A stretch of 64,000 bases of DNA from an uncultured Actinomycetota bacterium (lineage in GTDB: Bacteria; Actinomycetota; Actinomycetes; Actinomycetales; Dermatophilaceae). The notes below the pieces were generated by a model that saw only the letters and a list, made by a program, of their open reading frames with translations, was not told where the DNA came from and did no database searches. The translations under genes were made by a program, and so were the position numbers. The DNA lies in the NCBI GenBank assembly GCA_963728395.1, contig CAVSJJ010000008.1:422227-486226 (forward strand). Reading direction: 5' to 3'. Below, piece after piece: positions 37,366 to 39,311 of the stretch; positions within the stretch are counted from its first letter, which is position 1; each line of letters begins with the position of its first letter.

Positions 37366-38214
37366 TTAGGCGGTCTTCCAGTTAAGGCGGTGGCGGTCAA
37401 AGAGGCGGAAGGCTTCACGCGTCAGCTCCGCCGCGATCATCACGCTCAGTTGAAGGTGGTGGTCAGAGGTCGTGAACTTGAGCGTCGCCAACCCGGCCTC
37501 CGTGTCGCTGGCCACGTTCACCCGATCCAGGAAGTTCAGCGAGGCCCATCGCTGGCCGTGGGCCAGACCACTCGTGATCTGCCAGAACAACTGCGGCCCC
37601 CTGGGATCAGCCAGGGTCGGCATCTCTCGGCCGACATCATTCAGTACCGATTCGTAGCCGACGGTCCTGCCCAGGAGGTCGCTCTTGTCGAGGTGAAAAG
37701 GTCCACCCATCTGGACCAAACGCTCCAGCCTCTCCTGTTGAGACAAGGTGGCACCCACCAGTTCTCGGGCCTTCTCGTCATGTCGAAGATCTCGAACCAG
37801 AAGCTTGATGTGGCGTCGGATCCGCACGGTGCGGTCCTCGTTGTTCTGCAGCCACACGGCCGTCGCTGCGTTCTCAATCGCGCCTCGGACCACCGAAGCC
37901 GTCGCCCACGTGGGTACCTGTCGGGCTTCGAACAACCAGAGCCGCAAGCCTTCGAGGTGATCGACAGCTTGAACGATCCCCGCCCCAACGAGGTGAGAGA
38001 CCTGGAAAGGAGCGGTCGCAAGATCATCCTCGAAGAGGCGGCTTCCTTCCTGGATCTCCGTCCCGTCGGGGCCGCGCGCCAGCCAGCCTGTGACTGGCTG
38101 GAGAACTCGAATCAGGTCGGCCATGGCTTGTTCGCCGATGTGCTCTGCCACCTTCGCGACAGTAGTGGGCGGCGCTCCTTTCAAGGGCGGCCGCAAGCCT
38201 CCCGCGCCGACCAC
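37366..38214 (-). CDS. hypothetical alpha-helical protein (282 aa), third gene of the MNT-HEPN operon
   Basis: GTG start lies 6 nt after the HEPN stop (an ATG alternative is 30 codons in). Lower GC than the core. Contains RTVRIRRH and LRHDEKAR, which are Rx(n)H-like. No family recognised. Confidence 0.55.
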   Translation of the reverse strand: MVGAGGLRPPLKGAPPTTVAKVAEHIGEQAMADLIRVLQPVTGWLARGPDGTEIQEGSRLFEDDLATAPFQVSHLVGAGIVQAVDHLEGLRLWLFEARQVPTWATASVVRGAIENAATAVWLQNNEDRTVRIRRHIKLLVRDLRHDEKARELVGATLSQQERLERLVQMGGPFHLDKSDLLGRTVGYESVLNDVGREMPTLADPRGPQLFWQITSGLAHGQRWASLNFLDRVNVASDTEAGLATLKFTTSDHHLQLSVMIAAELTREAFRLFDRHRLNWKTA

Positions 38215-38220
38215 GACGAG

Positions 38221-38694
38221 CTATGTCCAGGGCCCGAGCTGGCCAGAGCCGATGAGGGCGCGAGCGGCCGCCAGGGCGTCCTGCGACACCGCCAACGCGT
38301 CGTCGACGTCGCCGTCGTCGGGGCCGCCCTGATCGGAGTCGGGGTACTCGTAGGCGTTGCGATTGCGCCGGATCCGGCCGAAGGAGCGGAACGGCGACCC
38401 TGCTCCTCCGAACTGGGCACGCACCGCGTCCTGGATGGCGATGTGGCCGCCGCGGCTGGTGGCACGAAGTCCTTGCACCGCGAGCAGCGCCGCGGCGGCC
38501 TTGCGCAGCGCGTCGTAGGCGAGCTGGTACGCACCGGTCAGGTCTCCCAAACCCCTGGCGGATCGGGCCGACTCGATGTGGCGGGCGCTGTCGGCGAGCA
38601 GGCGGATGGCCAGATCGGCATCCGGGGCAACCCGCTCGAGCTCCCCGCCGGAGAGAAGGGCATCCACATCATCCCGTCCCGGTCCCCACGTCAC
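38221..38694 (-). CDS. HEPN-domain-like protein (putative HepT-type toxin)
   Basis: 157 aa, all-helical. RATSRGGH fits Rx4-6H. The start overlaps the stop of the upstream nucleotidyltransferase gene by 4 nt. Confidence 0.55.
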   Translation of the reverse strand: MTWGPGRDDVDALLSGGELERVAPDADLAIRLLADSARHIESARSARGLGDLTGAYQLAYDALRKAAAALLAVQGLRATSRGGHIAIQDAVRAQFGGAGSPFRSFGRIRRNRNAYEYPDSDQGGPDDGDVDDALAVSQDALAAARALIGSGQLGPWT

Positions 38695-39287
38695 GACGCG
38701 TCACCTGCTTCGAGCACCGGGTGGATGGGGACCAGCGGGCGGGTGGTGACCTCGGTGTGGAAACCGTCGGTGCCGTTACGCCACCAGTCCAGTGACCGGA
38801 TCGTCACGTTCACCTCTCGCCCCAGCCGGAGACGCGCACGATCAGCCGCATCGGCGACCTCGTCGCGGTCGGGCCGGCCGATGACGAGGACGTCGAGGTC
38901 GGCCGGAGCGCGTCCCGGCGCACCGGCATACCGCGCTGCCCACGACCCGAACAGGTACAGCCCCTCGATGCCACCAACGGCGGCGAACGCCTCGGCGACC
39001 ACCTGCGGCGGACCGAAGGACCGGAGCAGTAGCTCGGTCAGTGGCTCGGTGATCGGCGACGGCAGCGCGCGAACCAGCCGGGTGTTCCCGACCCGCCGGG
39101 AGATGACGACGCCGGCCTCCTCGGCCCGGGTCACCTCCCGCTGGGCCGTCGAGACCGAGGCACCGACGCGGGTCGCGAGGTCGGTCAACGACCACTCTCG
39201 CTCCGGGTTGAGCAGGATGAGCGCGAGGATCTCCCCCTGAAGAGCGGACCGCAGCAACGGCAGCAACTGCGGAGTCGGAGATTGCAT
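38691..39287 (-). CDS. winged-HTH + minimal nucleotidyltransferase (MNT) fusion protein (putative MntA-type antitoxin)
   Basis: ArsR-like wHTH: LLRSALQGEILALILLNPEREWSLTDLATRVGASVSTAQREVTRAEEAGVV. NTase motif: LYLFGSWAARYAGAPGRAPADLDVLVIG (GS...DxD). The start is ambiguous (ATG 39287 or 39308, TTG 39323). Confidence 0.7.
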   Translation of the reverse strand: MQSPTPQLLPLLRSALQGEILALILLNPEREWSLTDLATRVGASVSTAQREVTRAEEAGVVISRRVGNTRLVRALPSPITEPLTELLLRSFGPPQVVAEAFAAVGGIEGLYLFGSWAARYAGAPGRAPADLDVLVIGRPDRDEVADAADRARLRLGREVNVTIRSLDWWRNGTDGFHTEVTTRPLVPIHPVLEAGDAS

Positions 39288-39311
39288 AACATGCAATCTA
39301 CTTTGCATGTT
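39280..39311. promoter_or_regulatory. operator-like overlapping palindromes with three TTGCAT/ATGCAA hexamers at the MNT gene start
   Basis: gaTTGCATaacATGCAAtctactTTGCATgtt. gattgcat/atgcaatc and aacatgcaa/ttgcatgtt form two overlapping inverted repeats that cover the candidate start codons. Confidence 0.5.

What the first reader, a model, noticed from the sequence alone, without database searches (positions are those of the whole stretch)
37366..39311. Three-gene operon on the island: wHTH-MNT nucleotidyltransferase, HEPN-like protein and an uncharacterised 282-aa helical protein, under a triple TTGCAT operator
**First two genes.** They have the layout of type VII HepT/MntA toxin-antitoxin pairs.
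- The NTase carries GS...DLD.
- The HEPN-like protein carries RATSRGGH.
- The two genes overlap by 4 nt.
- Unlike typical pairs, the MNT carries an N-terminal ArsR-like wHTH.

**Third gene.** It starts 6 nt after the HEPN stop, so it is probably co-transcribed. It has no recognisable family but contains Rx(n)H-like strings (RTVRIRRH), so it could be a second HEPN-like or Abi-like effector.

**Operator.** The promoter and start region holds three TTGCAT/ATGCAA hexamers arranged as two overlapping palindromes. This is a plausible autoregulatory site for the wHTH.

**Context.** The operon sits at the attR end of a mobilizable element, a typical position for defence or addiction cargo. The third gene makes it more than a standard TA pair.
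Basis: partly seen in the sequence, partly recalled or inferred. Interest (0 to 1): 0.6.

Follow-up and report, generated by a model that had tools for sequence, protein, structure and literature searches.

The report
Known NTase-HEPN pair plus hitchhiker gene
The first two genes are an ordinary member of a known self-regulated toxin-antitoxin/phage-defence candidate pair (PDC-M05), and the third gene is not part of it: it is a separately acquired gene of a large uncharacterised family with its own promoter, and it is missing from a near-identical sister element.

Summary
All three minus-strand ORFs, the GS...DLD and RATSRGGH motifs, the 4-nt overlap and the TTGCAT cluster are present.

**Genes 1 and 2.** They match PADLOC candidate PDC-M05 (M05A E 6e-49, M05B E 1.5e-10). 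The ArsR-like wHTH fused to the nucleotidyltransferase is that family's defining architecture, not a novelty. Gene 2 is HEPN: R77-x6-H84 is invariant, and the AlphaFold model's best PDB matches are HEPN proteins.

**Operator.** It is a perfect 10-6-10 palindrome over the -10 box of a leaderless promoter. Analogous palindromes, different in each locus, recur across the family.

**Gene 3.**
- It is absent from 30 PDC-M05 loci.
- The two families share genomes only at chance level (4 of 401, about 3.6 expected).
- A sister element, 88-89% identical on both flanks, has 56 nt where this window has about 0.84-0.9 kb carrying gene 3.
- Its GC is 63% against 71-75% in the neighbours.
- It most likely starts at GTG 38151 behind its own leaderless promoter.
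- RTVRIRRH is not conserved, and neither fold nor profile is HEPN-like.

Gene 3 belongs to an unannotated family (about 2,700 clusters) found on actinobacterial plasmids, ICEs and prophages. Its function is unknown.

This scan has already met PDC-M05 in at least 61 other genomes.

The parts
39483..39526 (.). attR: 44-nt exact copy of the 3' part of tRNA-Arg(CCT) (attL copy at 26307-26350)
   Evidence: Homology with the sister element L052 begins at about this repeat (window 39525), and L052 carries the same tRNA remnant.
39295..39323 (-). Promoter of the gene 1-gene 2 pair: -35 TTGACT (39323-39318), 17-nt spacer, -10 TAGATT (39300-39295). The ATG at 39287 lies 7 nt after the -10, which implies a leaderless mRNA.
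   Evidence: the only sigma-70-like site in 37000-39700. The same TTGAC / -10 / ATG geometry recurs in homologous loci.
39282..39312 (-). Operator: perfect palindrome TAACATGCAA-agtaga-TTGCATGTTA (39312-39287), centred on the -10 and ending on the A of the start codon, plus a third half-site ATGCAA (39287-39282) in codons 1-2
   Evidence: The half-sites TGCAA/TTGCA are conserved in L052, L045 and L051 while the spacer varies. Across the family, the best perfect inverted repeat averages 6.7 nt against 2.5 nt in shuffles.
38691..39287 (-). Gene 1, 198 aa: ArsR-like wHTH (about residues 20-80) fused to a minimal nucleotidyltransferase (GS-X14-DLD) = PDC-M05A
   Evidence: PADLOC PDLC04370 E 5.8e-49, with the match starting at residue 13 of the TTG-started ORF; weak ArsR/MarR HTH and Polbeta hits; motif conservation.
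38221..38694 (-). Gene 2, 157 aa: HEPN-domain protein (UPF0332/PF05168 type) with invariant R77-x6-H84 = PDC-M05B. Its start overlaps the gene 1 stop by 4 nt (GTGA).
   Evidence: AlphaFold model pLDDT 92.7. Foldseek top matches are the HEPN proteins 2hsb, 1ufb, 1wol, 4nqf and 3o10, with 5yep and 8xeh lower in the list.
37354..38190 (-). Lower-GC segment of about 0.84 kb, present here but replaced by a short spacer in the sister element. It carries gene 3 and its promoter. The boundaries are approximate.
   Evidence: blastn: window 39525-38227 = L052 4170-5471 (88.2%) and window 37331-34175 = L052 5528-8667 (89.4%); junction alignment; GC 0.62-0.63 against 0.70-0.75 in the neighbours.
38159..38164 (-). 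Probable -10 box TACTGT of gene 3's own leaderless promoter, 7 nt upstream of GTG 38151
   Evidence: TANNNT lies 6-8 nt before the start codon in 9 of 14 distinct family loci (binomial P about 3e-19). The closest homologue's locus, L004, has TACTGT-N6-GTG.
37366..38151 (-). Gene 3, most likely 261 aa (the longest ORF reaches 38214, 282 aa): soluble, mostly alpha-helical protein of an unannotated family carried on mobile elements
   Evidence: pLDDT 89.8; residues 1-20 of the long form disordered. No fold match. No family match.
34325..37330 (+). TrwC/MobF relaxase-helicase of the island, convergent with gene 3 (context only)
   Evidence: TrwC E 2e-79, AAA_30 E 5.5e-55. In L052 the relaxase end lies 52-56 nt from the gene 2 stop.

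Best explanation
Two independent units lie side by side at the attR end of a 13.2-kb tRNA-Arg integrative mobilizable element.

**Unit 1 (genes 1 and 2)** is a standard member of the PDC-M05 family, a type VII-like MNT/HEPN toxin-antitoxin and candidate phage-defence pair.
- It is transcribed as a leaderless bicistronic mRNA from a TTGACT-17-TAGATT promoter, and the two genes are translationally coupled by a GTGA overlap.
- Inferred: a dimer of the wHTH of gene 1 binds the 10-6-10 palindrome that covers the -10 box and the transcription/translation start, and so represses its own operon.
- Inferred by analogy with HepT/MntA: the nucleotidyltransferase domain of gene 1 keeps the HEPN RNase (gene 2, active site R77...H84) inactive, by nucleotidylylation and/or complex formation. 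Loss of that control releases RNase activity, which would stabilise the element or abort phage infection.

**Unit 2 (gene 3)** is a separately acquired, lower-GC, single-gene cassette.
- It most likely starts at GTG 38151 behind its own leaderless promoter (TACTGT-N7-GTG).
- It encodes a soluble helical protein of a large, unannotated family that travels alone on plasmids, ICEs, prophages and islands of Actinobacteria.
- Its conserved Ser/Asp/His/Arg/Glu residues suggest an enzyme or a ligand pocket.
- Most likely role (inference from position only): a stand-alone factor in conflicts between mobile elements, phages and hosts, either defence/exclusion or anti-defence. It is not a component of the MNT/HEPN system.
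For: **Unit 1**
- PADLOC M05A E 5.8e-49 and M05B E 1.5e-10.
- The pair is adjacent in most of the 30 loci sampled from 55 of 401 class genomes carrying M05A, and most of the adjacent pairs have the same 4-nt overlap.
- The GS...DxD motif is conserved, and R77/H84 are invariant.
- The gene 2 model has the HEPN fold, and many homologues carry PF05168.
- Promoter and leaderless geometry.
- Operator palindrome: all three TTGCAT in 64 kb lie within 27 bp; the half-sites are conserved among close relatives; inverted repeats are enriched across the family.
- Literature: PDC-M05 is described as an NTase + HEPN pair with TA-like architecture (PMC12988326). One member protected E. coli B against at least one phage (bioRxiv 10.1101/2024.09.26.614923). 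MntA polyadenylylates HepT (PMC7641770).

**Unit 2**
- The sister element L052 lacks the segment, with 88-89% identical flanks on both sides.
- The closest chromosomal relatives of the pair, L045-L051, also lack it.
- Neither tblastn nor a family HMM finds gene 3 in the 30 PDC-M05 loci.
- The two families share genomes at chance level: 4 of 401 observed, 3.6 expected, and adjacent only here.
- There is a GC drop over gene 3.
- Gene 3 has its own promoter signature, P about 3e-19.
- Gene 3 relatives sit beside integrases, a serine recombinase, relaxases and T4SS genes, and in a prophage, with no shared partner gene.
Against:
- No terminator-like site or significant hairpin lies between gene 2 and gene 3. 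Read-through from the gene 1 promoter into gene 3 is therefore possible here.
- Toxicity, nucleotidylylation, DNA binding and any phage phenotype are all untested for this locus.
- Gene 1 has GS-X14-DxD rather than the GS-X10-DxD of studied MntA proteins. Gene 2 is of the PF05168 type rather than the DUF86 type, and the modified tyrosine of HepT has no obvious counterpart, so the neutralisation chemistry may differ.
- No terminal repeats or recombinase footprint mark the gene 3 segment, so the way it arrived is unknown.
- The role proposed for gene 3 rests only on genomic neighbourhood.
Confidence: 0.8

Rival explanations
1. One reading: the three genes form one functional system in this element. 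Gene 3 is co-transcribed with the MNT/HEPN pair and acts as a second effector or a modulator of it.
For: - Same strand, with a gap of only 6 to 69 nt depending on the start codon chosen.
- No terminator-like site or stable hairpin between gene 2 and gene 3.
- Other reports in this scan describe extra genes recruited behind PDC-M05 pairs.
Against: - Gene 3 is absent from 30 sampled PDC-M05 loci and from the four closest relatives of this pair.
- The two families share genomes only at chance level.
- Gene 3 has a different GC content.
- Gene 3 has its own conserved leaderless promoter geometry.
- No HEPN or Abi similarity.
Confidence: 0.07
2. Gene 3 is ancestral to this island family and was deleted in the sister element. 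On this view the three-gene arrangement is the original state and not an insertion.
For: - Only one sister element of the same island type was available for comparison.
- No target-site duplication or terminal repeats prove an insertion.
Against: - Three separate lineages of the pair lack gene 3: L052 at 88%, L045-L050 at 84% and L051 at 79% nucleotide identity.
- The segment's GC content is 8-12 points lower than both flanks.
- The closest gene 3 homologues (53-54% identity) lie in unrelated contexts.
Confidence: 0.07
3. Genes 1 and 2 are not a toxin-antitoxin or defence pair. They could instead be a non-toxic regulatory module, in which a DNA-binding nucleotidyltransferase has its activity or DNA binding tuned by a HEPN-fold partner that acts as a substrate-binding subunit, as in kanamycin nucleotidyltransferase-like two-domain enzymes.
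For: - The PF05168 type of HEPN is also the C-terminal substrate-binding domain type of KNTase-like enzymes, and a nucleotidyltransferase-like two-domain protein (3c18) is among the fold matches.
- The closest relatives L045-L050 sit in a stable chromosomal context.
- Antiviral activity of PDC-M05 is stated to be unconfirmed in PMC12988326.
Against: - The invariant R-x6-H RNase-type motif is retained.
- The family is patchy and mobile: 55 of 401 genomes, often in several copies.
- One PDC-M05 member gave phage protection in E. coli B.
- Studied MNT/HEPN pairs are toxin-antitoxin systems.
Confidence: 0.1

Closest known systems
PADLOC phage-defence candidate PDC-M05 (M05A: ArsR-like HTH + KNTase-like nucleotidyltransferase; M05B: HEPN protein)
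   Same: Both proteins match the family HMMs. Domain architecture, gene order, translational coupling and a self-operator on a leaderless promoter are shared with 30 sampled loci.
   Different: Nothing essential differs for genes 1 and 2. They belong to an actinobacterial sub-branch (M05A score 164 bits, against 343 bits for the genome's other copy). A foreign gene has landed directly downstream.
Type VII HepT/MntA (HEPN/MNT) toxin-antitoxin systems, e.g. Shewanella oneidensis SO_3166/SO_3165 (PDB 5yep, 7bxo; PMC7641770)
   Same: A minimal nucleotidyltransferase with GS...DxD comes first and a HEPN protein with an Rx4-6H-type motif second. The HEPN fold is similar (5yep, 7bxo and 8xeh are among the Foldseek matches).
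   Different: - Gene 1 has an added N-terminal wHTH and GS-X14-DxD instead of GS-X10-DxD.
- Gene 2 is of the PF05168/UPF0332 type (R-x6-H), not the DUF86 type.
- No tyrosine lies next to the motif that would correspond to HepT Y104.
- No sequence-level match to any solved structure.
Pfam DUF5677 (PF18928), compared with gene 3
   Same: - Two of 55 gene 3 family members hit it (best E 1.1e-5).
- One genomic ORF is hit by both models (G118:C37).
- A short shared helix motif R-x3-E...WL.
- DUF5677 ORFs are reported as enriched next to serine recombinases (PMC12632615), and one gene 3 relative is coupled to a serine recombinase.
   Different: - Gene 3 itself has no hit.
- hhalign probability is only 4.5% over 33 columns.
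- The gene 3 HMM finds no DUF5677 protein.
- DUF5677 has no known function, and it was not among the five ORFs reported to give defence in E. faecalis.

Membership tests
PDC-M05 (PADLOC) | Protein A matches a PDC-M05A model (HTH + nucleotidyltransferase) | tested here: met
   PDLC04370 E 5.8e-49, residues 13-201 against profile positions 1-188 of 194. Four further M05A models also hit.
PDC-M05 (PADLOC) | Protein B matches a PDC-M05B model (HEPN) | tested here: met
   PDLC04375 E 1.5e-10, plus seven further M05B models.
PDC-M05 (PADLOC) | The A and B genes are adjacent and co-oriented | tested here: met
   4-nt overlap here. The same arrangement is found in most of the 30 sampled loci.
PDC-M05 (PADLOC) | Anti-phage activity | not testable with these tools
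   Only one heterologous member is reported as protective (bioRxiv 10.1101/2024.09.26.614923). PMC12988326 calls the antiviral role unconfirmed.
[quoted passage not shown] | MNT antitoxin with the GS-X10-DxD catalytic motif | tested here: inconclusive
   GS and DxD are present and at least 90% conserved, but the spacing is X14 (GSWAARYAGAPGRAPADLD). The motif definition is taken from PMC7641770.
[quoted passage not shown] | HEPN toxin with a conserved Rx4-6H RNase motif | tested here: met
   R77-ATSRGG-H84, both residues invariant in 35 homologues of 55-85% identity.
[quoted passage not shown] | HEPN fold of the toxin | tested here: met
   Model pLDDT 92.7. Foldseek top hits are HEPN proteins: 2hsb (target-normalised TM-score 0.79, probability 1.00), 1ufb, 1wol, 4nqf and 3o10, with 5yep and 8xeh lower down. 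E-values are weak, 0.01-0.8.
[quoted passage not shown] | The toxin belongs to the DUF86/HepT sequence family | tested here: not met
   The only Pfam hit is HEPN PF05168, E 0.13. Homologues carry PF05168 and UPF0332 names. No sequence match to solved HepT structures.
[quoted passage not shown] | The antitoxin AMPylates a tyrosine of the toxin, and the toxin is growth-inhibitory | not testable with these tools
   This needs biochemistry. The invariant tyrosines of gene 2 are Y56, Y60 and Y117, none of them next to the R-x6-H motif.
HEPN superfamily (asked for gene 3) | Conserved Rx4-6H motif | tested here: not met
   The His of RTVRIRRH (H135) is replaced in homologues. Only R131 is invariant and R134 nearly invariant, and no Arg lies 4-6 residues before the invariant H219.
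HEPN superfamily (asked for gene 3) | HEPN fold or profile similarity | tested here: not met
   - Confident model (pLDDT 89.8), but no PDB or BFVD match with E below 0.07 or TM-score above 0.35.
- hhalign against the gene 2 HEPN profile gives probability 0.06%.
- No HEPN or Abi family in Pfam, PADLOC or PHROGs for 55 members.
Pfam DUF5677 (asked for gene 3) | Match to PF18928 above the gathering score | tested here: not met
   No hit for gene 3. Two of 55 relatives hit. hhalign probability 4.5%.

The most novel reading that the evidence does not exclude
The gene 3 family could be a new single-gene defence or anti-defence factor of actinobacterial mobile elements. The grounds are:
- about 2,700 clusters at 50% identity;
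- no Pfam, NCBIfam, PADLOC or PHROGs model;
- a confident helical model with no PDB or BFVD match;
- invariant or nearly invariant Ser/Asp/His/Arg/Glu residues;
- its own leaderless promoter;
- always solitary, next to integrases, recombinases or relaxases on plasmids, ICEs, prophages and islands.

In this window it may have landed behind PDC-M05 because element ends collect such cargo.
Probability: 0.3. Interest if true: 0.55.

Novelty: new member of a known kind. Interest (0 to 1): 0.27.

Why it matters
- **For annotation.** Genes 1 and 2 can be named a PDC-M05 (wHTH-MNT/HEPN) pair. The 'three-gene system' should not be propagated.
- **The comparison with the sister element** is a clean natural experiment. 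It shows that a single gene with its own promoter has been added at the cargo end of a mobilizable island.
- **The operator analysis** gives an exact DNA target for testing autoregulation: a 26-bp palindrome over the -10 box and the leaderless start. It also shows that the operators of this family diverge from locus to locus while keeping the same geometry.
- **The only possibly new biology** is the gene 3 family. It is large, unannotated, restricted to mobile elements and without a known fold relative, so it is a reasonable candidate for a screen of defence or anti-defence genes in actinobacteria.

Tried and rejected
1. **Gene 3 as HEPN- or Abi-like: rejected.** The motif is not conserved. 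No family hits. No fold match in PDB or BFVD. hhalign against the gene 2 profile gives probability 0.06%.
2. **Gene 3 as DUF5677: not established.** Only faint links.
3. **A conserved partner gene for gene 3: none found.** The upstream ORFs of about 175 aa in L004 and L039 are unrelated. The 190- and 137-aa ORFs after the Kribbella homologue are not MNT/HEPN.
4. **Terminal direct or inverted repeats flanking the gene 3 segment:** only short matches at chance level.
5. **A terminator or stable hairpin between gene 2 and gene 3, or after gene 3:** none (z-scores -1.6 and -0.5).
6. **Sequence-level matches of genes 1, 2 or 3 to solved structures:** only marginal HTH hits for gene 1, nothing for gene 2, chance-level hits for gene 3.
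8. **Mapping the conserved gene 3 residues onto the model: not possible.** The model coordinates are not exposed.
9. **TTG 39323 as the gene 1 start: rejected in favour of ATG 39287.** The M05A profile begins at residue 13, homologues start there, and TTG 39323 is the first three bases of the -35 hexamer.
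Full report
**1. What is in the sequence**

Three minus-strand ORFs occupy 37366-39323:
- 38691..39323 (210 aa from TTG);
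- 38221..38694 (157 aa);
- 37366..38214 (282 aa from the most upstream GTG).

They lie at the right end of an island bounded by an exact 44-nt direct repeat, 26307-26350 and 39483-39526. That repeat is the 3' part of tRNA-Arg(CCT) at 26277-26349. The island carries a tyrosine integrase next to the tRNA, two further tyrosine recombinases and a TrwC/MobF relaxase-helicase at 34325-37330.
- GS...DLD in gene 1;
- RATSRGGH in gene 2;
- the 4-nt GTGA overlap;
- three TTGCAT/ATGCAA hexamers.

The hexamers are the only three copies in the 64-kb window on either strand, and they fall within 27 bp.

**2. Genes 1 and 2 are a known pair**

*Family assignment.* PADLOC models of the candidate system PDC-M05 match both proteins: M05A at E 5.8e-49 and M05B at E 1.5e-10. 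Pfam and NCBIfam give only weak ArsR/MarR-type HTH, Polbeta and HEPN hits.

*Literature.* PDC-M05 is described as a nucleotidyltransferase plus a HEPN protein with a toxin-antitoxin-like architecture. M05A carries ArsR-like HTH and KNTase-like domains.
- The antiviral role is called unconfirmed in PMC12988326.
- One randomly chosen member protected E. coli B against at least one of phages T4, T5 and T7 (bioRxiv 10.1101/2024.09.26.614923).

*Distribution.* In 401 genomes sampled across the class, 55 carry M05A. The window's own genome has a second copy on another contig. In most of the 30 loci fetched, a gene 2 homologue follows gene 1 directly, and most of those pairs show the same 4-nt overlap.

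*Conserved residues.* GS and DxD are at least 90% conserved in 35 gene 1 homologues.

*Gene 2.*
- It has at least 960 relatives. Many carry a precomputed PF05168 hit or are named 'HEPN domain-containing' or 'UPF0332'.
- R77 and H84 of RATSRGGH are invariant, as is a second block, RIRRxRNxFEYP.
- Its AlphaFold model is confident (pLDDT 92.7).
- The best PDB matches are HEPN proteins: 2hsb, 1ufb, 1wol, 4nqf and sacsin 3o10. HepT of the solved HEPN/MNT complexes 5yep, 7bxo and 8xeh appears lower in the list.

**3. Promoter and operator**

*Promoter.* The only sigma-70-like site in 37000-39700 is TTGACT (39323-39318), a 17-nt spacer, then TAGATT (39300-39295). The ATG at 39287 lies 7 nt after the -10. 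That is the residue where the M05A profile begins and where homologues start. It implies a leaderless mRNA, and the TTG at 39323 is the start of the -35 hexamer, not a start codon.

*Operator.* The hexamers are part of a perfect 10-6-10 palindrome, TAACATGCAA-agtaga-TTGCATGTTA (39312-39287). It brackets the -10 and ends on the A of the ATG. A third half-site, ATGCAA, lies in codons 1-2.

*Comparative support.*
- In the closest relatives (L052, L045, L051) the half-sites TGCAA/TTGCA are kept while the spacer changes.
- Across 22 family loci with a clean start, the longest perfect inverted repeat in the region -42..+12 averages 6.7 nt, against 2.5 nt in shuffles.
- Each locus has its own sequence (for example ACGCAT...ATGCGT), but the geometry is the same and the right arm usually overlaps the ATG.

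Because the transcript starts at the ATG, most of the palindrome is not in the RNA, so a DNA operator is the sensible reading. Binding by the wHTH and repression are inferred, not shown.

**4. Gene 3 is not part of the pair**

*Rarity and family size.* A direct search found only four relatives. A profile search found 2,735 cluster representatives at E of 0.001 or better. So this is a large but unannotated family.
- Gene 3 itself matches no Pfam, NCBIfam, PADLOC or PHROGs family below E 0.03.
- Among 55 family members scanned at E 0.01 or better, the only hits were two to DUF5677 and one each to DUF3847, PDC-S52 and phrog_14693.

*Test from the pair's side.* Neither tblastn with gene 3 nor an HMM of its family finds anything in the 30 PDC-M05 loci, most of which hold about 1 kb downstream of gene 2.

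*Test from gene 3's side.* Its homologues sit in many different contexts, and no neighbour is shared:
- next to tyrosine integrases (Kribbella, a Dermatophilaceae genome, a prophage-like contig);
- inside an ICE, between a lytic transglycosylase and T4SS genes;
- beside an AbiJ-like gene and a Mu-type transposase;
- translationally coupled to a serine recombinase on Arthrobacter plasmid pA58H2;
- divergent from mobC-relaxase on two Arthrobacter plasmids;
- in Mycobacterium abscessus prophage prophiGD05-3 (gene 37);
- on 31 actinobacterial plasmids in all.

*Test at genome level.* In the same 401 genomes, 26 carry the gene 3 family and 55 carry M05A. Four carry both, where 3.6 are expected by chance, and the two are adjacent only in this genome.

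*The decisive comparison.* A metagenomic contig, L052, carries the same island family, with the same tRNA-Arg remnant at its end.
- Window 39525-38227 aligns to L052 4170-5471 at 88.2% identity.
- Window 37331-34175 aligns to L052 5528-8667 at 89.4% identity.
- The 895 nt in between (38226-37332) correspond to only 56 nt in L052.
- The junction alignment suggests that residual spacer homology runs to about 38191 and resumes at about 37353. The extra segment is then about 0.84 kb, essentially gene 3 and its upstream 40 nt.

Three other lines point the same way:
- Two further lineages of the pair also lack gene 3: L045-L050 (84% nucleotide identity, chromosomal context) and L051 (79%).
- The segment has GC 0.62-0.63, against 0.70-0.72 for genes 1 and 2 and 0.72-0.755 for the relaxase.
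- Parsimony and composition together favour a gain in this lineage.

**5. Gene 3 has its own start and promoter**

Several observations move the start from GTG 38214 to GTG 38151 (261 aa):
- Homologues begin at the position of V22, which is GTG 38151.
- Residues 1-20 of the long ORF are modelled as disordered.
- A -10-like TACTGT (38164-38159) lies 7 nt before that GTG. This is the same leaderless geometry as for gene 1.
- The closest homologue's locus, L004, has TACTGT-N6-GTG at the aligned start.
- TANNNT lies 6-8 nt before the start in 9 of 14 distinct family loci. About 0.4% per locus is expected from hexamer frequency, giving a binomial P of about 3e-19.

The '6-nt gap, hence co-transcribed' argument therefore fails. 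Read-through from the gene 1 promoter still cannot be excluded, because no terminator or significant hairpin lies in the 69-nt spacer.

**6. What gene 3 might be**

The AlphaFold model is confident (pLDDT 89.8, pTM 0.86). It is mostly helical, with one beta-hairpin at 229-249.
- It has no match in PDB or BFVD: best E 0.6 and 0.07, and TM-scores at most 0.35.
- It shows no similarity to the gene 2 HEPN profile.
- The His of RTVRIRRH is not conserved.
- In 55 members, S58, R131, W211 and H219 are invariant. D63, D64, P69, S73, D85, H86, R110, E114, W121, R134 and S215 are at least 90% conserved. This pattern suggests a catalytic or ligand-binding site.
- The link to DUF5677 is faint: 2 of 55 members hit it, one genomic ORF is hit by both models, and hhalign gives probability 4.5%.

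A preprint reports DUF5677 ORFs as enriched and co-oriented behind serine recombinases. DUF5677 was not among the five of nine tested ORFs reported to give defence in E. faecalis (PMC12632615).

My best guess is that gene 3 is a stand-alone factor in conflicts between mobile elements, phages and hosts, either defence/exclusion or anti-defence. This rests on position alone.

**7. Verdict**

Genes 1 and 2 are an ordinary member of PDC-M05, which this scan has already reported in at least 61 other genomes. Their autoregulatory operator is well supported by comparison. Gene 3 is an unrelated neighbour that arrived separately.

Not done: expression evidence could not be obtained, and all biochemical steps are inferred.

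Noticed in passing
G000 contig C4:338365-338946 (locus L009): The same genome carries a second PDC-M05 pair of a different sub-branch (M05A E 6.8e-103, against 5.4e-48 for the window's copy). Its own palindrome overlaps the start (CTCAGTT...AACTGAG).
   Followed up: partly
L052 (ENA ERZ25039495 contig_44735) 4170-8667: Sister island at a tRNA-Arg remnant, 88-89% identical to the window's island end but without gene 3. Its TrwC relaxase is called as two ORFs (862 + 115 aa), and IS110-family transposase fragments lie just beyond it.
   Followed up: partly
L051 (GCA_964267995.1) 4372-7230: Another copy of the pair, 79% nucleotide identity, lies about 1.7 kb from a complete tRNA-Arg(CCT). A MarR gene and small ORFs lie in between. 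This suggests that the pair repeatedly sits at this tRNA's attachment site.
   Followed up: no
L054 (Arthrobacter plasmid pA58H2, NZ_MH067975.1) 3348-4819: A gene 3 family member (302 aa) overlaps by 4 nt the stop of a small serine recombinase gene. This matches the reported enrichment of DUF5677-type ORFs behind serine recombinases.
   Followed up: partly
L058 and L059 (Arthrobacter plasmids NC_008539.1 and NZ_CP084558.1): Gene 3 relatives lie divergent from mobC-relaxase, each preceded by an ORF of about 110 aa. In NC_008539.1 an ssb gene is nearby, which could mean a leading-region position.
   Followed up: no
G406:C6:68045-70347 (locus L019): Two PDC-M05 pairs in tandem, about 1.7 kb apart, in one genome.
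   Followed up: no
G107:C180:6926-7695: A gene 3 family gene appears split into two overlapping frames (profile positions 5-144 and 139-262), probably by a frameshift.
   Followed up: no
window 28938-31348: Two adjacent tyrosine recombinase genes (Phage_integrase E 4e-32 and 6e-28) lie inside the island, in addition to the integrase next to the tRNA (26366-27655).
   Followed up: no
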